Below the pieces are notes generated by a model that saw only the letters and a list, made by a program, of their open reading frames with translations, was not told where the DNA came from and made no database searches. 39,579 nucleotides of DNA from a virus: UHGV virus genome UHGV-0251828; one strand, written 5' to 3'. Within the stretch, counting starts at the first letter, position 1; each line of letters starts with the position of its first letter. Positions 143-39,579 of this stretch are shown here, one piece after another. The position numbers were made by a program, and so were the translations under genes.

Positions 143-165
143 GGCACAGGGATGTGCCTTTAAAT
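143..165 (+). terminator. intrinsic terminator-like hairpin after the wrapped CDS
   Basis: GGCACA-GGGA-TGTGCC stem-loop followed by TTTAAATAATT. Confidence 0.4.
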
Positions 166-206
166 AATTCTGTACAGATTGCAGACTGTGGGTGAATAGC
201 GTACTA

Positions 207-221
207 TTACCTCAAGGGTAA
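207..221. promoter_or_regulatory. operator-family site TTACCTCAAGGGTAA overlapping a candidate promoter
   Basis: Perfect TTACC-N5-GGTAA; TTGCAG (179-184), 17-bp spacer, TACTAT (202-207) immediately upstream. Confidence 0.55.
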
Positions 222-281
222 ACGGATTGGTTTCATTTTTATTAATCCGTGTAATGAACTTATGAGATATGAGGTAATGTC

Positions 282-461
282 ATGCGAAACGAAAAATTGC
301 AGATGCGTAGAGCGCAAGCTGCCGCAAGACGTTCTTTCAATGGAAGCGTAGAGTGCGTAAAAGTTACTATGACAAAAGATCACGCAAGTCGCGTATCCCG
401 CGCTTTCTTTGATTCTCGTAACAATAAGGAAAATTATGAGTTCGTCTGCGTCGCAGAATGA
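282..461 (+). CDS. hypothetical 59-aa protein with Arg/Ala-rich N-terminus; overlaps next gene by 26 nt
   Basis: ATG with GAGGT Shine-Dalgarno 7 nt upstream; not in ORF track (<60 aa); hand-translated MRNEKLQMRRAQAAARRSF... Confidence 0.35.
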   Translation: MRNEKLQMRRAQAAARRSFNGSVECVKVTMTKDHASRVSRAFFDSRNNKENYEFVCVAE

Positions 462-981
462 TAAAAATCAAATTGTCAGATATAAGGGTCGAGTATTGCA
501 TACGCAAAATTTCTCGGCCCTTTGTGCATCTGATCTTGAGCTGAAGAAAGTATCTGATGCCTTTACCCAGTATTGGAAAACGGGATACCATCCATCTCTT
601 GGTAAAGATGCTGCATTTGCTCGTCCGACAGAAATGCTTAAACTAAATGTCAGGCATACTCATGTCGATAACCAAGACTATATTCCAGAAGATAGTGATA
701 AAAAACACACTGGTAAAAAATCATCTTGGGATGCATGGAAAAAAATAGCGTCTGTGCAAGTAAAATGCATACCAACAAGTAATTGCTTTTTAGTTTATTC
801 GGTAAATCACAATCGTGATGCGCTGGTTATGTTTTTTGTTGACGCAGATGCCCACAACATAACTGAGCAAGAAGAGTTTAAAGAGGCAGCAATCACTATC
901 AGTTATCAATTCTTTGAGAAAACAAAAACAGAACCAATGCCTTTAGAAGAAGATCTTTTTTCTGATAAATGGAAGGAATAA
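436..981 (+). CDS. AT-rich accessory protein, 181 aa; possible YafO-like toxin fold (from memory)
   Basis: ATG at 436 with AAGGA SD (track ORF 409..981 starts at an upstream TTG); motifs VRHTHVD and FLVYSV...DADAH; terminator directly downstream. Confidence 0.6.
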   Translation: MSSSASQNDKNQIVRYKGRVLHTQNFSALCASDLELKKVSDAFTQYWKTGYHPSLGKDAAFARPTEMLKLNVRHTHVDNQDYIPEDSDKKHTGKKSSWDAWKKIASVQVKCIPTSNCFLVYSVNHNRDALVMFFVDADAHNITEQEEFKEAAITISYQFFEKTKTEPMPLEEDLFSDKWKE

Positions 982-1003
982 GCCCGCGCCGCGGGCTTTT
1001 TTG
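981..1003 (+). terminator. intrinsic terminator
   Basis: GCCCG-CGC-CGGGC hairpin followed by TTTTTT. Confidence 0.7.
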
Positions 1004-1074: not shown

Positions 1075-1236
1075 ATGAAAAAAGCATTTGCTGCACTGTT
1101 CGTTTTGTTGTCTCTGGTAGCTTCAACTCAGGCCTTTGCCGGTCGTTGTCAGCACGACAGCGATACTGCCGCTGACGGCTCCCGCTGCGGTGGGCGTTCT
1201 GCGGATTCCCGCCCGGGTGGCGGTGGCATTCGTTAA
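1075..1236 (+). CDS. small secreted peptide (53 aa; predicted Sec signal peptide, ~31-aa mature part with 2 Cys)
   Basis: MKKAFAALFVLLSLVASTQAFA signal-peptide-like N-terminus within track ORF 1003..1236; TTGACG -35-like hexamer at 1034-1039; weak SD. Confidence 0.4.
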   Translation: MKKAFAALFVLLSLVASTQAFAGRCQHDSDTAADGSRCGGRSADSRPGGGGIR

Positions 1237-18159: not shown

Positions 18160-18236
18160 GTGGCATTAGCTCAGTTGGACAGAGCAACCGCCTTCTAAGC
18201 GGTTGGTCGCAGGTTCGAATCCTGCATGCCACGCCA
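18160..18236 (+). tRNA. tRNA-Arg (anticodon TCT)
   Basis: Hand-folded cloverleaf: 7-bp acceptor GTGGCAT/ATGCCAC, D-stem GCTC/GAGC, anticodon stem ACCGC/GCGGT with loop CTTCTAA, T-stem GCAGG/CCTGC, T-loop TTCGAAT, encoded CCA. Confidence 0.9.
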
Positions 18237-26950: not shown

Positions 26951-27181
26951 TCATGAGTAGAAGAAGTATGCCAGTTCTGCTTTTGAGCGCAGCCATTGTC
27001 TTGTTTTACAGGCTTTAAAAAGCCCATTCATCAATACCTTACCTGGCATTTTGCGCTTACCTGTTAAGTGAGTCTGGATATAGTGACTCGTCGTTCCGGC
27101 TTCCTGTGCGAAGGCTTCACGCTCATCCGGAGTAAGTGCAAGCCAGTGCTTTTTGAAATCGAAATGTCCGTTATCGCTCAT
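26951..27181 (-). CDS. Cro-like early regulator (76 aa)
   Basis: Divergent from the repressor gene across a three-operator region. Confidence 0.55.
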   Translation of the reverse strand: MSDNGHFDFKKHWLALTPDEREAFAQEAGTTSHYIQTHLTGKRKMPGKVLMNGLFKACKTRQWLRSKAELAYFFYS

Positions 27182-27217: not shown

Positions 27218-27280
27218 TCACCCATAAGGTAACAAAAATCAAGAATAGTTACCTATGAGGTGCATTTACCTGTTGGGTAA
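27218..27280. promoter_or_regulatory. right-operator region: three operator-family sites
   Basis: TCACCCATAAGGTAA (27218-27232), TTACCTATGAGGTGC (27249-27263), TTACCTGTTGGGTAA (27266-27280) between divergent Cro-like and repressor genes. Confidence 0.65.
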
Positions 27281-27335: not shown

Positions 27336-27920
27336 ATGAAAAGTATCCAGGACGTCCGCAGGCAAAATCTCAACGACTTGATCGACCGTGAATTCAATGG
27401 TGTTCAGACGCGGATGGCAGAAAAACTTGGAACTCAGGCAAATCTGGTAAACCGCTGGGCTCTTGGCAAGAAGGTTATCGGCGACCAGGTTGCGCGAAAA
27501 ATTGAAGCTGCCGCCAATAAACCCCGTAACTGGCTTGATATTGATCGTTCGCTTTCTCAGGAGGGTTTTCAGCCTGTCGGCCCGAGCGATATAGGTCAGC
27601 TGGCGGCTCACAACCTGGAACGCTGGATGAGCGAAAGCCGCGACCTTTCAACACAGGGAAAACTTCACCGCGCATCCGGCGTCGCCCAGGTGACAATCAG
27701 CCGTCTGTTAAACAATGAGGTCAGCGTTTCCATTTCCACCCTGGAGAATGTTGCATCCGCATTCGGGCGTCACGGATATGAATTACTGATTCACCCGCAC
27801 GACCCCGCGACTATCAACTATGACCGCTCGCGCTACGCATTGTTACCTGAAACAGAGAAGGCAAAGATCGAAAGTTACATTGAATTTGTCATCAACCAGA
27901 ACGAAAAAAGCAAACAATAA
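27336..27920 (+). CDS. prophage repressor with two XRE-type HTH-like segments and no recognisable S24 peptidase domain
   Basis: 194-aa track ORF; position divergent from cro; strong terminator downstream. Confidence 0.75.
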   Translation: MKSIQDVRRQNLNDLIDREFNGVQTRMAEKLGTQANLVNRWALGKKVIGDQVARKIEAAANKPRNWLDIDRSLSQEGFQPVGPSDIGQLAAHNLERWMSESRDLSTQGKLHRASGVAQVTISRLLNNEVSVSISTLENVASAFGRHGYELLIHPHDPATINYDRSRYALLPETEKAKIESYIEFVINQNEKSKQ

Positions 27921-27992: not shown

Positions 27993-28039
27993 TTTTTTTA
28001 ACTCATATCTATTGACATCAAACCAGATACGCATAATTA

Positions 28040-28054
28040 TTACCTCAACGGTAA
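28040..28054. promoter_or_regulatory. left-operator site TTACCTCAACGGTAA overlapping the early-left promoter
   Basis: Perfect half-sites; TTGACA (28012-28017) with 17-bp spacer to an AATTAT -10-like element. Confidence 0.6.
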
Positions 28055-34437: not shown

Positions 34438-34735
34438 GTTTAGACCTCGATACTTTGAAAATTTGAACGACGTTACCGCGCGTTTTAATAACCGCAGCGA
34501 GCATGACAGCGTTGATAATGACCTCAGATAAATCCACAGCCATTGGCGTGCGGAACCAGATTGCATAGGCAACACGAATCGGAATACTGGCCGCAGCAAC
34601 AATCAGGAAATAAGCAAGCCACCCCCCCCATCTTCGATGTTGAGATCCGTTACGCCGGAATGTGACAACGCGAATTGCTATGCCAGTACAAATAACTGCA
34701 TTGGTGATAAGCAAAAAAAACTCATGCGTTACCAT
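34427..34735 (-). CDS. small membrane protein (holin or antiholin-like, 102 aa)
   Basis: Track ORF; GGGAG SD; two hydrophobic segments; overlaps endolysin start. Confidence 0.5.
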
Positions 34736-35126
34736 CGTCTTTTCTCCCCGGAATTAACTCGCGTGGATTATCGGAACGGTGGTAGAGCCATATACCAATA
34801 CGCACAGCAACAATTGCTGACACGAATGCGCCAGCAGAGAAAACAATCCCTTTTTCAAAAGAGTCCTGCGTGATAGTAGGGATCAGGCTGGCTATGCCGA
34901 TAAGAATTGATGCTGCTGGTTTATAAAAAAGAAGGCCGCAGAGAAAGCTAAGCATCGATAAGAGTACGCGACGATGAATTGGGTACTCTACCGCAGAGGT
35001 AACAAAAATTACCGCACCAGCCAAAGACCCTAAAGCAACCTCAGGAGGAACTCCTGCTATAACCGCAGCAAGAGAACTCATGCTAAGCCATTGATTTAAA
35101 GATTCACTGGTTAGTTGAGCTGACAT
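34722..35126 (-). CDS. holin-like membrane protein (~134 aa); start uncertain
   Basis: Track ORF 34722..35159; ATG candidates at 35126 and 35138; 3-4 hydrophobic segments and charged C-terminus. Confidence 0.5.
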   Translation of the reverse strand: MSAQLTSESLNQWLSMSSLAAVIAGVPPEVALGSLAGAVIFVTSAVEYPIHRRVLLSMLSFLCGLLFYKPAASILIGIASLIPTITQDSFEKGIVFSAGAFVSAIVAVRIGIWLYHRSDNPRELIPGRKDDGNA

Positions 35127-35383
35127 AATGTGCACCATATTTTGTATATACAGATCCACTTAAACTGTCAGCTAATTATACACAACAAACCATATAAGAA
35201 TAATTATTACTCAATATTATTCTTGATTATTCGTATTTATCCGGTGCGCCGTAAAAACCAGTTCTTCTTGGCGTAGAGGATGTCAAGAGAATTAAATGAT
35301 AATTACATTGTTGATAAGTGGCGTCCTTGCCGTGGTAATTACTAAACTTATGATTTCTCCGCCATGCCTGATATGGAAAATAA

Positions 35384-38233
35384 TTACTTATTTTTTTCCA
35401 TTGGTTCAGCCTTATTGAGTTGTTCCTTAAGCTTATTCCATGCTGAATCCTCAGGCATCTGTACTCGCACAGAAACGAACTGATTAGCAGGAATGTCGAT
35501 CGGGTCACCGTTCGAAACACCAGGGATGTCGTTACGTGCAAAAACTGGCGAGTTATCATGAGTGCGGTGAAACGTTTTCACCAACACAGAGCCATCTTGG
35601 TTAACAACATAATCCAGCCAGATGAGCGGCTGCTTGTTTCGGTCCTGCGGTATTTCAAATCCACCATCAATCCCCCCCCATGAAGCATCTGCATTCAGAC
35701 CTACGCAACCCTCAATCAGATATTCCCCCAATGCCAGCCGTGTGACGGTTACCCCATCTGATTCGCGATTTGTTTCACTACTACCGTCTGAGAAAATCTT
35801 CACAACCGGAGAGGCTTTTTTGATGAAACCACTTGAATCGACGGTCGTGTTCAGCGACGACCATGCCTCAGCCCAGCCTGTGTTACCTGCGCGAATAGCA
35901 TCGTCTGCGTAGCGGAAGAACAGTTTTGATGTTGTGGACATGAATATCTGCAACACACGGTTTTTTGCATATCCTGACTCCCATAATGCTCCGTTACCTG
36001 TTCCTTCTGGCTGCCAGTTTGTCACCCCACCTGCAGCTCCTACACTTACACCAGTAGACCAGTCTCCAGCAAATTCTGGAAGATTTAGTGAGTTAGGTGA
36101 GCGAATTGATACATCAACCAGACCAGGGGATCCGAGAATCGACATGCTGCGGGAGGACACCTTAGTAAAAGAGTTGTACCCGCCGTTTTTGGAAATCCTT
36201 CCTGTATAATTATTAGCCCTGTTAGTTCCATTAACTGTAATTTCCCAGGTATCGCCGTTGATGAAGTCGATCTGCAATAGGCAGAATGCTGGCAGCGTCA
36301 TCTGTCCTGGCGCAGATGGCCCACCTTCAAACAGTGGCATATCCTGTTCAAGATATGTCACATATCTACCTGCATCTGTATTCCGCAAATAGTCACAAAT
36401 AGCCTGTGCCGATGTAAATAGCGCAATACCATCAGCCGGGTTTACAGGGTGACGGCCAGCGTTAATCACCCTTCCGCGAGGGTTAAATAACTGTGATGAG
36501 GCATTGGATAGCGGAGTCATGTCTACTGTTCCAGGTTCATTAGATGGACAGTTAGCGCGAATGATGTTTAAAGTCCTATAATTTGATCCGCCCCCATTGT
36601 CATAGCGAATAGACTGTAGAAGATACAATTCCTCAGAGCCAGAAATATCACAAGACTGCACCCCCTCATTTTCAGTGGAGTAAACACTCTTCCCTGAATA
36701 ACTATCCCAGTATGTTTTGAAATCTGCAGGTGACAGCAGGTACTGACCTAATTCTGAACCATTAAGGCTGTACTCAATATAACCCTGCAACCCTGCGAAA
36801 GTATTTCCAGATCCCGCCGTGGTAGATGCACCAATACCAGCAAATATCCGTTGAGAACCAAGAGCGACACCCTGCCGTTTTGGTTTACCGGCTCCGCGAC
36901 CTCCAACATTTGCATCAACCGTAATAGTCCCCATTGGACTGTAAGATCCTTCTATAAGGCTGTTAATATCCAGTGTGTTAAAGATATTGGATACACCTGT
37001 CTCAACATCAAAAATTTTCGGCCAACCCATATCCGCATTTTCGTATATCAGGGTATTACCAAAGCCACTAAACTGATATCGCACTCCAAGGCGTGTTGAT
37101 TCAGTGAAGTTTGTAATCTGCGTTTTATCAACCAGCGTACGCGGATCTTCGATAGGGTAAATTCTGATAGTGCGAGATGGGCTGTACGGCAGCAGGATGT
37201 AACGCTGTCCTGCCACTCGGTAAACGTGGATGCCTTCTGGTGCACCAACGTTATTCGGAAAATGAAGACGTGTTACCAATGCTCCTGTTACCCAGTCATG
37301 CACCGTAACCCATACCGATGCGGGGTCTAGCGTCTGCCAGCCGATGTATACCATTCCATCATTGCTGTCTATGTAAATCCCCTGAAATCCCATGGTCGTG
37401 TAACCATACTGATCTTTAAGATCTGCGGTAATCTCATCGTCTATGATGCTGAATTCTAATTTCCAGTTCAGCGGCCTACGCGTACCACTGACATGCCTGG
37501 AAATATGAGACAGGTAGCTTTTTTTCCCTCCGGCCAAAATGTAACGCGAGGTTATTTCTGTCACTATGCCGACTGCAGCAGGAGTAACACGATAAACAGC
37601 CCCATTAATCCTGACAAAGTTTGAAATGGTTTTTATCTCATACCCGACAGACATGTCCAAGCGAGAGCTGTCATATTTGCCATTAGCGAGATCTGTAACA
37701 TACATTGCGTTGTCGATGTTATCAGGCCTAACTACCCCACTATATAAGTCTTGCACATATTTTTTTGTTACAGCATCCTGAGAGTTCTTCGGATCGGCCA
37801 AATTGGAAATTCTGTTTTGCTTTGCATCGTAATATTTTGCAAGCAAAGATGGTTTCATCAATGCACGTCTGAACCACCCAAAACATCGCTGGATCAGCAT
37901 CGTCAGGTAGTCAAATGCATCTTCATGAACTTCGGGGAAAAATTTTCCCTGATTGCGAAGATCAGTCTCCTGCACCACATCAAGCACACGCTCTATCGTG
38001 ATTCGCCAGCCAGCAGCAAGCGGCGACGGAAGAACCACTGCACCGCCACTATAAGTTCCCGCCCCTGTTACTGTATAACCAGCATCCAGCACTAGTTCTG
38101 TTACGTTACCGTTAAGGTCAGACACCTGAACAACCAGGTCGGATTTTTTGAAAATACGGAAGGTATACGGAAATGATGTCGTAACGCCGTTACCTGTGTA
38201 TTCGTTGTGGTCAACTTCGGTTGAGACCGTCAT
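35384..38233 (-). CDS. tailspike protein
   Basis: 949-aa track ORF; GGAG SD; Ser/Gly/Asn-rich central region. Confidence 0.85.
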   Translation of the reverse strand: MTVSTEVDHNEYTGNGVTTSFPYTFRIFKKSDLVVQVSDLNGNVTELVLDAGYTVTGAGTYSGGAVVLPSPLAAGWRITIERVLDVVQETDLRNQGKFFPEVHEDAFDYLTMLIQRCFGWFRRALMKPSLLAKYYDAKQNRISNLADPKNSQDAVTKKYVQDLYSGVVRPDNIDNAMYVTDLANGKYDSSRLDMSVGYEIKTISNFVRINGAVYRVTPAAVGIVTEITSRYILAGGKKSYLSHISRHVSGTRRPLNWKLEFSIIDDEITADLKDQYGYTTMGFQGIYIDSNDGMVYIGWQTLDPASVWVTVHDWVTGALVTRLHFPNNVGAPEGIHVYRVAGQRYILLPYSPSRTIRIYPIEDPRTLVDKTQITNFTESTRLGVRYQFSGFGNTLIYENADMGWPKIFDVETGVSNIFNTLDINSLIEGSYSPMGTITVDANVGGRGAGKPKRQGVALGSQRIFAGIGASTTAGSGNTFAGLQGYIEYSLNGSELGQYLLSPADFKTYWDSYSGKSVYSTENEGVQSCDISGSEELYLLQSIRYDNGGGSNYRTLNIIRANCPSNEPGTVDMTPLSNASSQLFNPRGRVINAGRHPVNPADGIALFTSAQAICDYLRNTDAGRYVTYLEQDMPLFEGGPSAPGQMTLPAFCLLQIDFINGDTWEITVNGTNRANNYTGRISKNGGYNSFTKVSSRSMSILGSPGLVDVSIRSPNSLNLPEFAGDWSTGVSVGAAGGVTNWQPEGTGNGALWESGYAKNRVLQIFMSTTSKLFFRYADDAIRAGNTGWAEAWSSLNTTVDSSGFIKKASPVVKIFSDGSSETNRESDGVTVTRLALGEYLIEGCVGLNADASWGGIDGGFEIPQDRNKQPLIWLDYVVNQDGSVLVKTFHRTHDNSPVFARNDIPGVSNGDPIDIPANQFVSVRVQMPEDSAWNKLKEQLNKAEPMEKNK

Positions 38234-38718: not shown

Positions 38719-38733
38719 TTACCTTTGCGGTAA
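38719..38733. promoter_or_regulatory. operator-family site TTACCTTTGCGGTAA
   Basis: Perfect half-sites between the small SOS gene and the Bro-N gene. Confidence 0.55.
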
Positions 38734-38823
38734 ATTTACATAGCACTCCTCTTGTGCCATAGTAATCGGGCACTGGCAAAATCCAGTGCCGGGATTGGCG
38801 TCCCGAGTTACTAAGTGGCGCAT

Positions 38824-38847
38824 ACCACGCCAGACGTGGTTTTTTTA
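38824..38847 (+). terminator. intrinsic terminator-like hairpin in the leader of the Bro-N gene
   Basis: CCACG-CCAGA-CGTGG hairpin followed by TTTTTTT. Confidence 0.5.
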
Positions 38848-39002
38848 TGCGTTAAGCACAGCTATATCCGAATTATGGTGGGCTGGGCAGGGGTCCGAAA
38901 GGACGCCGGTACCACTTAGGCCGGTACGCCAACCTTGTCCAGTTCACCACCAGTAATTGGCGTTGCGGTGGTGATTAAAATCACTAAGTGGAGATAACCA
39001 CC

Positions 39003-39579
39003 ATGGCTAATGCTCAAACTGCCATCTTCAAATTTGAATCTGTTAACCCTATCCGTTCCATCATTATCGATGGCCAACCATGGTTTGTAGCCCAAGACGT
39101 TTGTAGTGCGCTGCGTATCCAAAACGTCACCCAAGCACTTGAAAAACTGGATGATGATGAAAGGTCTATGTTCAACATAGGGCATGAACATCGTGCAATT
39201 TTTGACAGCCGAGTAAAAGAGATCAACATCATCTCCGAGTCAGGCCTCTACACACTGATCCTCCGCTGCCGCGACGCAGTGACACCAGGCACTATCCCAT
39301 ACCGCTTTCGTAAATGGGTTACAGGTGAGGTTCTTCCTCAGATCCGCCGCACCGGAAGTTACATTAAAAACTCGCTCCCGCAGGAAGAGCGCATAAAGAT
39401 GGTTGCCGACCAGGTAGCCAACGCCACAGCATCAGCAGTGATGCAGGCGATGAAGATAGAGAACAAAACCTACAGTGCCCCACTGAAGCCCGGCTACCGC
39501 AGCCTGATTCATTCGCCGTCTGGTGTTCTCGGCCTGACGGAGAACTCACTGCTGATGAATCTGCTGAACCAGTTACAGG
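39003..39579 (+). CDS. Bro-N/KilA-type antirepressor-like protein, 3'-truncated by the window edge
   Basis: 192 codons without stop; GGAG SD; motif NPIRSIIIDGQPWFVAQDVCSAL. Confidence 0.7.
   Translation, partial: MANAQTAIFKFESVNPIRSIIIDGQPWFVAQDVCSALRIQNVTQALEKLDDDERSMFNIGHEHRAIFDSRVKEINIISESGLYTLILRCRDAVTPGTIPYRFRKWVTGEVLPQIRRTGSYIKNSLPQEERIKMVADQVANATASAVMQAMKIENKTYSAPLKPGYRSLIHSPSGVLGLTENSLLMNLLNQLQ

What the first reader, a model, noticed from the sequence alone, without database searches (positions are those of the whole stretch)
143..1003. AT-rich island with a possible YafO-like toxin gene under an operator-overlapped promoter
Visibly AT-rich plus-strand insert opposite to the virion operon. 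It has promoter-like hexamers (179-184, 202-207), a perfect operator site (207-221), a 59-aa Arg/Ala-rich ORF overlapping by 26 nt a 181-aa ORF, then a terminator. The 181-aa protein has motif spacing I recall for YafO-family mRNA interferases (not searched). Operator control implies it is silent in the lysogen and expressed on derepression, so it may be a host-shutoff or exclusion factor.
Basis: partly seen in the sequence, partly recalled or inferred. Interest (0 to 1): 0.75.

Follow-up and report, generated by a model that had tools for sequence, protein, structure and literature searches.

The report
Repressor-gated YafO-like toxin pair in prophage
A temperate E. coli phage carries a swappable two-gene cargo, a small unnamed protein plus a distant relative of the YafO/RelE RNA-cutting toxins, placed behind a promoter that the phage's own repressor probably keeps shut; it is a modest variation on a well-known kind of module.

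Summary
All the sequence features are at the stated coordinates. The window is a complete, circularly permuted phiV10/epsilon15-like (Uetakevirus) genome.

- **Partner.** The overlapping 59-aa ORF (282-461) is a real gene under purifying selection. It travels with the toxin through four phage backgrounds. It has no name or domain anywhere, and it is unrelated to YafN. It is the likely neutralising partner, but it is unusually basic.
- **Slot.** The promoter, operator and terminator belong to the phage backbone, not to the insert. Only about 222-981 is swappable cargo.
- **Operator.** TTACC-N5-GGTAA is a genome-wide motif, with 16 sites against 0.5 expected. Three copies cluster between the cI and cro-like genes.

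Transcription limited to derepressed cells is therefore a reasonable inference, but it is untested. Toxicity, neutralisation and physiological role are also untested.

Verdict: a new variant of a known kind, of moderate interest.

The parts
179..184 (+). -35-like hexamer TTGCAG of the slot promoter (phage backbone)
   Evidence: Read directly from the sequence. The TTGCAx-17-TAnTAT layout is conserved in the Citrobacter and Klebsiella prophage cassettes despite different spacers; the Hafnia copy has a weaker -35. The stretch is shared with phiv142-3, which carries other cargo. The first ~80 nt of the region occur in 321 of 5426 E. coli genomes. The generic promoter scan did not call it.
202..207 (+). 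-10-like hexamer TACTAT, 17 nt after the -35; its last T is the first base of the operator
   Evidence: The same junction of -10 and operator is seen at 38719 (promoter of the antirepressor operon) and at 28040 (early rightward promoter).
207..221 (.). One copy of the phage-wide operator TTACC-N5-GGTAA (TTACCTCAAGGGTAA), covering about -8 to +8 of the promoter
   Evidence: 16 sites against 0.48 expected in the window. 14 sites against 0.55 expected in phiV10, which lacks the cassette. Three sites lie between the cro-like gene and cI. The site fits the consensus aTTACCTnwnAGGTAAt. The binding protein is inferred, not shown.
222..281 (+). Cargo-specific 5' leader with the Shine-Dalgarno GAGG at 271-274; the left recombination junction lies at about 222-226
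   Evidence: phiv142-3 is identical up to the operator and then diverges. E. coli genomes without the cassette match only query positions 1-~84, that is window 143-226. The last ~40 nt of the leader are conserved among cassette homologs. The inverted repeat 219-228/244-253 is not conserved.
282..461 (+). 59-aa basic protein (pI 9.9), the putative neutralising partner (antitoxin) of an unnamed family
   Evidence: phrog_6685, function unknown. 41 protein clusters, all named 'hypothetical', none with a Pfam domain. dN/dS is 0.12-0.51 (mostly 0.2-0.35) in the part that does not overlap the toxin gene. A small ORF always lies directly upstream of the toxin gene, overlapping it by 8-26 nt or, in one locus, ending 2 nt before it, in the epsilon15-like, siphovirus-like and HK97-head prophages and in a chromosomal island. 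Not related to YafN. pI.
436..981 (+). 181-aa long-form YafO-family protein with a RelE/HigB (BECR) fold, the putative endoribonuclease toxin; Shine-Dalgarno AAGGA at 426-430 lies inside the upstream ORF
980..1003 (+). Intrinsic terminator of the slot (phage backbone): AAGCCCGCGCCGCGGGCTT plus a T-run
   Evidence: Terminator scan. The same hairpin follows the unrelated cargoes of phiv142-3 and EC.W1-9.

Best explanation
Positions 222-981 are a mobile two-gene cargo plugged into a fixed expression slot of a phiV10-like temperate phage. The slot lies at the far end of the antirepressor region. It consists of a weak sigma-70 promoter, whose -10/+1 is covered by one copy of the phage's CI/Cro operator, and an intrinsic terminator.

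The cargo encodes two proteins whose translation is probably coupled through a 26-nt overlap. The first is a 59-aa basic protein. The second is a 181-aa long-form YafO-family protein with the RelE/HigB fold.

The most likely mechanism is as follows. The large protein is an mRNA endoribonuclease that blocks translation. The small protein binds and neutralises it. The small protein has no recognisable DNA-binding domain, and the operon has no conserved operator of its own. In this phage, transcriptional control is therefore delegated to the prophage repressor: the operon is off, or nearly off, in an established lysogen. It is transcribed with the early genes after infection, induction or antirepressor action.

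Shown here: the anatomy, the family and fold of the large protein, the reality and co-inheritance of the small gene, the genome-wide operator motif, and the modular slot.

Inferred: RNase activity, toxicity, neutralisation, CI binding at 207-221, and the physiological role. My leaning for the role is an early-phase brake on host or competitor translation, or a penalty for losing the repressor, rather than a classical addiction module.
For: **Family and fold of the large protein.**
- Pfam YafO_toxin, E=6.6e-5.
- A profile of the 24 close homologs, searched against 1.8 billion representatives, found 70 proteins at E<=0.001. The 130-150-aa tail of that list is hit directly by E. coli K-12 YafO at 37-57 bits.
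- 39 of 66 members of the extended family match PF13957, the best at 1e-39.
- hhalign of the extended family against YafO gives 97.8% probability over the whole of YafO.
- The shared motifs are F..YW/K, FG[KR]D, RP, [R]HxH, TSD..L.Y and AH. All are intact in this protein.
- AlphaFold gives pLDDT 93.2 and pTM 0.87.
- YafO is listed as one of the Pfam BECR-fold families of the RelE/ParE superfamily, with antitoxin-toxin gene order (PMC11980606).

**The partner.**
- A small ORF lies directly upstream of the toxin gene, overlapping it or ending 2 nt before it, in every context examined.
- It is under purifying selection.
- The partners of remote toxins are distantly related to it.
- The disordered but invariant toxin N-terminus MSSSASQ is dual-coded with the partner's C-terminus YEFVCVAE.
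- The pair is maintained behind strong, operator-less promoters in other prophages. It is also maintained in a Kosakonia prophage whose 20.5 kb examined hold only 2 motif sites, a count reached by 7 of 100 shuffles. This implies that the pair is tolerated when expressed.

**Regulation.**
- The motif statistics are strong.
- Three sites cluster between cro-like and cI, and sites flank or overlap a consensus early promoter.
- The promoter-operator layout is conserved across genera.
- The operator is also present in front of other cargoes in the same slot.
- The repressor is 99% identical to that of phiV10. The paper states that phiV10's repressor has the same sequence as the ZX5 repressor, whose overexpression cut lysis-gene transcripts by more than 99.9% (PMC9782041).
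Against: - No experiment bears on toxicity, RNase activity, neutralisation, CI binding or expression timing.
- The Pfam score is below the gathering threshold. NCBIfam and PADLOC give nothing.
- Foldseek against the PDB is not significant, with a best E of 0.32.
- The profile of close homologs alone aligns only weakly to E. coli YafO, so the link depends on intermediate sequences.
- The charge pattern is the reverse of most type II pairs. The small protein is basic (pI 9.9, Arg-rich N-terminus) and the large one is slightly acidic (pI 6.4). The small protein could therefore bind nucleic acid rather than, or as well as, the toxin.
- The promoter is weak by consensus and the generic scan did not call it.
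- No convincing terminator separates the antirepressor gene from the slot. The hairpin at 143-158 has a z-score of -1.4. Read-through from the upstream operon is possible, although that operon is also operator-controlled.
- A co-expressed neutraliser makes a simple host-shutoff role hard to reconcile.
Confidence: 0.55

Rival explanations
1. This is an ordinary type II toxin-antitoxin or abortive-infection cargo that acts in the lysogen. Under this reading the single operator only damps a promoter that still leaks. The complex is present in lysogens, and the toxin is freed when a superinfecting phage or stress stops synthesis of a labile small protein. The benefit would be defence or prophage stabilisation, not an early lytic function.
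For: - The same pair sits behind strong promoters without the operator in siphovirus-like prophages and in a chromosomal island beside type I restriction-modification genes.
- The operator looks orphaned in the Kosakonia prophage.
- There is only one operator copy at the slot, with no nearby partner site for cooperative binding.
- RelE-superfamily toxins are reviewed as defence toxins (PMC11980606).
Against: - The operator covers the -10/+1 exactly as it does at the antirepressor promoter, which must be shut in a lysogen.
- There is no match to any PADLOC defence model.
- The layout of promoter plus operator is conserved across genera, which argues that the control matters.
Confidence: 0.25
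2. The large protein is a phage-serving RNase rather than a toxin, comparable to T4 RegB. It would be an early enzyme that trims host or phage early mRNAs to reshape gene expression. The basic small protein would be an RNA-binding specificity or activity cofactor, not an antidote.
For: - The gene sits in an early, repressor-controlled transcription unit.
- The Arg-rich basic N-terminus of the small protein, and the reversed charge pattern of the pair, suit nucleic-acid binding.
- E. coli YafO behaves unlike the core ribosome-dependent RelE toxins in transcriptome-wide cleavage maps (PMC8546651).
- From my own knowledge, not checked here: T4 RegB has a RelE/YoeB-like fold and no antitoxin.
Against: - The upstream-small, downstream-large overlapping arrangement and its strict co-inheritance are the signature of toxin-antitoxin pairs.
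- The cassette is optional. It is present in 61 of the 321 E. coli genomes that have the slot, so it is not part of the core phage programme.
Confidence: 0.12
3. The large protein is a decayed or repurposed RelE-fold protein with no nuclease activity, carried as neutral cargo.
For: About 75 of the 181 residues lie outside the RelE core: the N-terminal segment, the insertion at about 78-112 and the C-terminal tail. The Pfam score is below threshold.
Against: - Purifying selection is strong, with dN/dS of 0.08-0.18.
- The family-wide invariant residues (G56, H76, and the near-invariant F43, P64, S115, Y121, H140) are all present.
- The extra segments are themselves conserved and modelled with high confidence.
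Confidence: 0.06

Closest known systems
YafN-YafO of E. coli K-12 (type II toxin-antitoxin; YafO_toxin, PF13957)
   Same: Same toxin family, by a chain of profile matches and by shared motifs (FG[KR]D, HxH, L.Y, [AP]H). Same superfamily fold. The antitoxin-first gene order and closely packed genes are also shared (PMC11980606).
   Different: The protein has 181 residues against 132, with an insertion at about 78-112 and a conserved C-terminal tail MPLEEDLFSDKW. The partner is not YafN or Phd/YefM-like (hhalign probability 0.1%) and belongs to no named family. The module lies in a phage cargo slot rather than the dinB-yafNOP operon. Its promoter carries the phage's operator.
HigB2 of Vibrio cholerae (HigBA2) and HigB1 of M. 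tuberculosis
   Different: Sequence identity is 8-9%. The gene order is toxin-first (PMC11980606). The small protein here is 59 aa with no recognisable domain. From my own knowledge, not checked here: HigA2 carries a helix-turn-helix DNA-binding domain.
PaaR2-PaaA2-ParE2 of E. coli O157:H7 prophages (three-component toxin-antitoxin system; from my own knowledge, only the structure reference was seen)
   Same: A short antitoxin (63 aa) without a DNA-binding domain. Transcription is controlled by a separate phage-repressor-like regulator. The toxin belongs to the RelE/ParE superfamily, and the system is prophage-borne.
   Different: The regulator is encoded within the module itself, whereas here the control would come from the prophage's master repressor. 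ParE2 is not an RNase. The antitoxins share no sequence similarity.
Growth inhibitors under prophage-repressor control: P1 immI operon (c4-icd-ant), lambda kil, Rac kilR, Qin dicB (from my own knowledge)
   Same: A harmful gene placed in a repressor-controlled early or antirepressor operon. This window even has a C4-type antisense RNA and an isrK-like RNA in front of its antirepressor gene, directly upstream of the slot.
   Different: Those are cell-division inhibitors without a dedicated antidote gene. They are unrelated in sequence and fold.
T4 RegB (from my own knowledge)
   Same: A phage early endoribonuclease with a RelE/YoeB-like fold.
   Different: It has no partner gene, comes from a lytic phage, and is sequence-specific (GGAG). 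No relationship was detected here.

Membership tests
YafO toxin family (Pfam PF13957) | Score at or above the Pfam gathering threshold | tested here: not met
   23.4 bits against a cut-off of 25, E=6.6e-5, covering profile positions 3-88 of 101. A 98%-identical protein and several homologs do carry a precomputed PF13957 hit. 39 of 66 extended-family members match at E<=0.001.
YafO toxin family (Pfam PF13957) | Demonstrable homology to E. coli K-12 YafO | tested here: met
   The profile of close homologs finds P0090, P0097, P0102, P0107 and P0108 at library-wide E of 6e-6 to 9e-4. E. coli YafO hits those same proteins at 37-57 bits. hhalign of the extended family against YafO gives 97.8% probability and E=8e-13 over YafO residues 2-130 (partly circular, because the alignment contains canonical members). 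The direct comparison of close homologs with YafO is weak.
YafO toxin family (Pfam PF13957) | Conserved family residues present | tested here: met
   F43, G56 (in the motif [FL]G[KR]D), P64, H74-x-H76, S115, Y121 and H140 are invariant or nearly so across 65 sequences, and all are present here. Which of them are catalytic is not known.
YafO toxin family (Pfam PF13957) | Cognate antitoxin of the YafN (Phd/YefM) type | tested here: not met
   hhalign of the small-protein family against YafN gives 0.1% probability. The small protein has no significant Pfam, NCBIfam or PDB match.
RelE/ParE (BECR-fold) toxin superfamily | RelE-like alpha/beta fold | tested here: met
RelE/ParE (BECR-fold) toxin superfamily | mRNA endonuclease activity or translation inhibition | not testable with these tools
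   This needs expression, in vitro cleavage or 5'-end RNA-seq. For E. coli YafO itself, ribosome dependence is disputed (PMC8546651; PMC7180214).
Type II toxin-antitoxin system | Two-gene operon with a small protein gene next to the toxin gene | tested here: met
   The 26-nt overlap, the single promoter and the single terminator are all present. The arrangement is kept in 10 further loci from at least four genomic backgrounds.
Type II toxin-antitoxin system | The antitoxin binds and neutralises the toxin, and is more labile than the toxin | not testable with these tools
Indirect support: the pair persists behind strong, unregulated-looking promoters elsewhere. Against: the charge pattern is reversed.
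Type II toxin-antitoxin system | Autoregulation through an operator bound by the antitoxin or the complex | tested here: inconclusive
   The only conserved palindrome upstream of the close cassettes is the phage-wide operator. The inverted repeat in the leader at 219-253 is not conserved. The small protein has no detectable DNA-binding domain, but its basic N-terminus leaves DNA binding possible.
CI/Cro operator regulon of phiV10-like phages | The site matches the over-represented genome-wide palindrome and overlaps a promoter | tested here: met
   It is an exact match to TTACC-N5-GGTAA and fits the extended consensus. It covers the -10/+1, as at 28040 and 38719. The motif is equally over-represented in phiV10, which lacks the cassette.
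CI/Cro operator regulon of phiV10-like phages | Bound by the repressor, with transcription off in the lysogen | not testable with these tools
   This is inferred from three sites between the cro-like gene and cI and from repressor overexpression data for a phage whose repressor is reported to have the same sequence as phiV10's (PMC9782041). No operator has been mapped experimentally in any paper I could read. The epsilon15 genome paper is not held.

The most novel reading that the evidence does not exclude
The antirepressor-distal slot of epsilon15/phiV10-like phages is a plug-and-play expression site, made of a fixed repressor-controlled promoter and a fixed terminator. Cargoes are swapped in and out of it. 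In this phage the slot turns a self-contained toxin-antitoxin pair into a repressor-gated RNase switch.

The antidote would belong to a previously unrecognised family of small basic proteins that lack their own operator. The toxin is made only when the prophage repressor fails. It would then act as a commitment or dead-man device, or as a brake on competitors during early lytic growth.
Probability: 0.3. Interest if true: 0.6.

Novelty: new variant of a known kind. Interest (0 to 1): 0.42.

Why it matters
- **A new partner family.** If the small protein is the antidote, it defines an unnamed antitoxin family of 41 protein clusters, all annotated as hypothetical. It pairs with a long-form branch of the little-studied YafO family, for which no structure has been solved.
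- **Delegated control.** The arrangement would be a clear natural case of a toxin-antitoxin pair whose transcription is handed to a prophage master repressor rather than to the antitoxin. This bears on the open question of what such modules do for phages.
- **Annotation.** PGAP names the toxin but omits the 59-aa gene in E. coli genomes, so these toxins appear as orphans.
- **A cargo slot.** The fixed promoter-operator-terminator slot, present in 321 of 5426 complete E. coli genomes, is a convenient place to look for further phage cargo genes.

Tried and rejected
**Searches that gave nothing useful**
- The scan of species-representative genomes for relatives found none. Contexts were obtained through exact-protein look-ups instead.
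- The first AlphaFold run, using only the 24 close homologs, gave an unusable model with pLDDT 52. Adding the remote relatives fixed this.
- The AlphaFold-database library was not available, so I could not compare directly with a YafO model.
- Foldseek against the PDB and BFVD gave no significant match.
- Sequence searches of the PDB found nothing for the toxin family, for E. coli YafO or for the small protein. No YafO structure has been solved.
- NCBIfam and PADLOC gave no hit.

**Ideas considered and dropped**
- A cassette-specific operator, the inverted repeat 219-228/244-253. Rejected because it is absent from homologous leaders.
- The small protein itself binding TTACC-N5-GGTAA. Rejected because the motif is equally abundant in phiV10, which lacks the cassette.
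- The downstream 53-aa signal-peptide ORF (1075-1236) as a third component. Rejected because it is backbone, shared with phages that carry other cargo.
- The TTG start at 409 (190 aa). Rejected in favour of ATG 436, because homologs begin with MSSSASQ and a Shine-Dalgarno sequence precedes 436.

**Not available**
- The epsilon15 genome paper, which I recall describing a similar 17-bp palindrome, is not held. That recollection is unverified.
Full report
**1.

Region 143-1003 is the most AT-rich stretch of the window. It has 39.5% G+C against 49.2% overall, and only 3 of 775 sliding 861-nt windows are as low or lower. It lies on the plus strand, whereas the virion genes from 1268 onward are on the minus strand.

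- TTGCAG (179-184), 17 nt, TACTAT (202-207).
- The palindrome TTACCTCAAGGGTAA (207-221).
- A 59-aa ORF (282-461, GAGG at 271-274).
- A 181-aa ORF (436-981, AAGGA at 426-430), overlapping the first by 26 nt.
- A GC-rich hairpin with a T-run at 980-1003.

The promoter is weak by consensus, and the generic scan missed it.

**2. What the window is, and where the cassette sits**

The window is a complete phiV10/epsilon15-like (Uetakevirus) temperate podophage genome. It is an exact circular permutation. The Bro-N antirepressor gene starts at 39003, runs over the end of the window, and stops at 132-134.

Only phage TL-2011b holds the whole region in the phage collection, at 98.7% identity. Other relatives match only the flanks.

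The alignments define a slot:
- phiv142-3 is identical through the promoter and operator and diverges at about 222 into other small ORFs.
- The terminator hairpin is shared by phiv142-3 and EC.W1-9, which carry unrelated cargo.
- ZX5 and EC.W1-9 carry a different overlapping pair, 108 aa plus a 167-aa DUF2335 membrane protein. It too is preceded by TTACCCGATTGGTAA.
- phiV10 has almost nothing in the slot.

Among 5426 complete E. coli genomes, 321 have the first ~80 nt (promoter and operator). Only 61 have the whole cassette.

The promoter, operator and terminator are therefore phage backbone. The mobile cargo is about 222-981.

**3. The 181-aa protein**

Sequence evidence:
- Pfam gives YafO_toxin at E=6.6e-5, at 23.4 bits against a cut-off of 25.
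- NCBIfam and PADLOC give nothing.
- PHROGs places it in phrog_1651, of unknown function.
- The big protein collection holds 27 clusters of close relatives, all from Enterobacterales.
- A profile of these relatives, searched against 1.8 billion representatives, found 70 proteins at E<=0.001. The list grades from 170-195-aa proteins down to 130-150-aa proteins.
- E. coli K-12 YafO hits those short proteins directly at 37-57 bits.
- 39 of 66 members of this extended family match PF13957, the best at 1e-39.
- The family profile aligns with YafO over its whole length at 97.8% probability. This test is partly circular. The direct comparison of close homologs with YafO is weak.

The alignment shows shared motifs: F..YW/K, FG[KR]D, RP, [R]HxH, TSD..L.Y and AH. 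It also shows that this branch has an insertion at about 78-112 and a conserved C-terminal tail.

Structural evidence:
- No YafO structure has been solved.
- With the deeper alignment, AlphaFold gave pLDDT 93.2 and pTM 0.87. The shallow alignment had given only 52.
- Foldseek also ranks HigB2 first, but without significance (E=0.32).

The literature lists YafO among the Pfam BECR-fold families of the RelE/ParE superfamily, with antitoxin-toxin gene order (PMC11980606). Its ribosome dependence is disputed (PMC8546651; PMC7180214).

RefSeq already names this protein a 'type II toxin-antitoxin system YafO family toxin'.

dN/dS is 0.08-0.18, and all family-invariant residues are present. It is therefore not a decayed copy.

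**4. The 59-aa protein**

It is a real gene. In the part that does not overlap the toxin gene, dN/dS is 0.12-0.51, mostly 0.2-0.35.

A small ORF of 53-84 aa lies directly upstream of the toxin gene, overlapping it or ending 2 nt before it, in every context I could read:
- The same slot of epsilon15-like prophages of Serratia, Citrobacter, Hafnia and Klebsiella.
- The tail-gene region of siphovirus-like phages.
- Between the lysis genes and the HNH/terminase genes of a Kosakonia prophage with an HK97-type head and a contractile tail.
- An Arsenophonus prophage.
- A chromosomal island beside type I restriction-modification genes.

The partners of remote toxins are distantly related to it. hhalign gives 69% probability for the Arsenophonus partner, with a shared pattern RRxQAA...VT.T....S.

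A profile search found 41 clusters, every one 'hypothetical' and none with a Pfam domain. It is unrelated to YafN and to anything in the PDB by sequence. PGAP does not annotate it in E. coli genomes.

The toxin's first seven residues are modelled as disordered, yet they are almost invariant. They are dual-coded with the partner's conserved C-terminus YEFVCVAE. This points to a constrained, functional C-terminus in the small protein.

One feature is atypical. The small protein is basic (pI 9.9, Arg-rich N-terminus), and the large one is slightly acidic (pI 6.4).

**5. Regulation**

TTACC-N5-GGTAA occurs 16 times with at most 1 mismatch, against 0.48 expected. It occurs 14 times against 0.55 expected in phiV10, which lacks the cassette. 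It is therefore a phage-wide signal that does not depend on the cargo.

Where the sites lie:
- Three copies lie between the cro-like gene (26951-27181, minus strand) and the two-HTH repressor gene (27336-27920).
- Two copies flank or overlap a consensus early promoter at 28012.
- One copy overlaps the -10 of the promoter in front of the antirepressor operon at 38719.

The site at 207 has the same register: the last T of the -10 is the first T of the operator. It also fits the extended consensus.

All close cassette homologs have an exact site 53-75 nt upstream of the small ORF. Those in Citrobacter and Klebsiella keep the TTGCAx-17-TAATAT layout despite different spacers. The Hafnia copy keeps the -10/operator junction with a weaker -35.

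The repressor here is 99% identical to that of phiV10. The ZX5 paper states that phiV10 and ZX5 have the same repressor sequence, and overexpression of the ZX5 repressor cut lysis-gene transcripts by more than 99.9% (PMC9782041).

No operator has been mapped in any paper I could read. The epsilon15 genome paper is not held.

In the Kosakonia prophage, the promoter and operator travelled with the cassette. Only two motif sites occur in the 20.5 kb examined, a count reached by 7 of 100 shuffles. There the site looks orphaned.

Remote cassettes have strong promoters and no such motif. Gating by the repressor is thus a property of the epsilon15-type slot. The persistence of the pair behind unregulated promoters argues that it is self-neutralising.

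**6. Mechanism**

Most likely (confidence 0.55) this is a translationally coupled pair. A YafO/RelE-fold mRNA endonuclease is held in check by a small partner that lacks an operator of its own. The pair is transcribed from a promoter that the prophage repressor occludes. It would therefore be off in lysogens and on early after infection, induction or antirepressor action.

Rivals:
- A leaky classical toxin-antitoxin or abortive-infection module acting in the lysogen (0.25).
- A RegB-like phage RNase with a basic RNA-binding cofactor (0.12).
- An inactive relic (0.06).

The physiological role cannot be decided with these tools. A plain host-shutoff role fits poorly with a co-expressed neutraliser.

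**7. Comparison and novelty**

The toxin is a divergent member of a known family, and RefSeq already labels it so. Three things differ from YafNO and other described systems:
- The long-form toxin branch.
- The unnamed partner family.
- The apparent delegation of control to the prophage repressor, within a fixed, reusable expression slot.

The nearest analogies are PaaR2-PaaA2-ParE2 (a short antitoxin with a separate phage-type regulator) and growth inhibitors in repressor-controlled operons, such as P1 icd in immI. Both analogies come from my own knowledge.

Prophage-borne toxin-antitoxin pairs and partner swapping are commonplace. I therefore rate this a new variant of a known kind, with interest 0.42.

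**8. Dead ends**

These are listed under 'tried and rejected'.

Noticed in passing
window 38770-38846 and 38871-38954 (+), upstream of the antirepressor gene 39003-39579 + 1-134: Full-length Rfam matches to the isrK Hfq-binding RNA (67 bits) and the C4 antisense RNA (66 bits) lie between an operator-overlapped promoter (operator at 38719-38733) and the Bro-N antirepressor gene. This is a P1/Gifsy-1-style RNA-controlled antirepressor operon, directly upstream of the cargo slot.
   Followed up: partly
window 207, 17823, 20965, 20983, 24897, 24959, 26881, 27218, 27249, 27266, 27978, 28040, 33062, 34988, 38106, 38338, 38719: The palindrome TTACC-N5-GGTAA occurs genome-wide, with 16 sites against 0.5 expected. 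A three-site cluster lies between the cro-like and repressor genes; its middle site at 27249 has 2 mismatches and is not among the 16. All 10 exact sites lie outside the long ORFs, several next to promoter-like hexamers. phiV10 has 14 sites at matching places. The repressor (27336-27920) has two helix-turn-helix regions in one 194-aa chain.
   Followed up: partly
L009 1754-2555 and L010 1754-2555 (phages EC.W1-9 and vB_EcoP_ZX5): The same slot holds a different overlapping gene pair: 108 aa of unknown function plus a 167-aa DUF2335 membrane protein. It too follows a TTACC-N5-GGTAA site. phiv142-3 has two tiny ORFs there, and phiV10 almost nothing.
   Followed up: partly
window 1075-1236 (+): A 53-aa ORF with a signal-peptide-like N-terminus and a Gly/Arg/Asp-rich tail (phrog_14503, 'membrane associated protein'). 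It lies just after the slot terminator and is conserved in relatives whatever their cargo.
   Followed up: no
window 18160-18236 (+): A tRNA-Arg (anticodon TCT) on the strand opposite to the surrounding packaging and head genes.
   Followed up: no
L015 5085-5681 (Arsenophonus nasoniae prophage): An OspG-type protein kinase gene (a type III effector family) lies next to a remote copy of the small-ORF + YafO-like pair and a Bro-N gene in an epsilon15-like prophage.
   Followed up: no
L012-L014: A remote family member (172 aa, with a 53-aa upstream ORF) sits in a bacterial chromosome beside type I restriction-modification genes (N6_Mtase and Methylase_S). This is a defence-island-like setting, behind a near-consensus TTGACA/TATAAT-type promoter.
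   Followed up: no
window 34600-35650: The second most AT-rich stretch of the genome, at about 41% G+C. It lies in the region where relatives carry O-antigen-modifying genes.
   Followed up: no
window 381-403 (- strand): A terminator-like hairpin with a T-run on the minus strand, inside the 59-aa ORF. I did not test whether an antisense transcript ends there.
   Followed up: no
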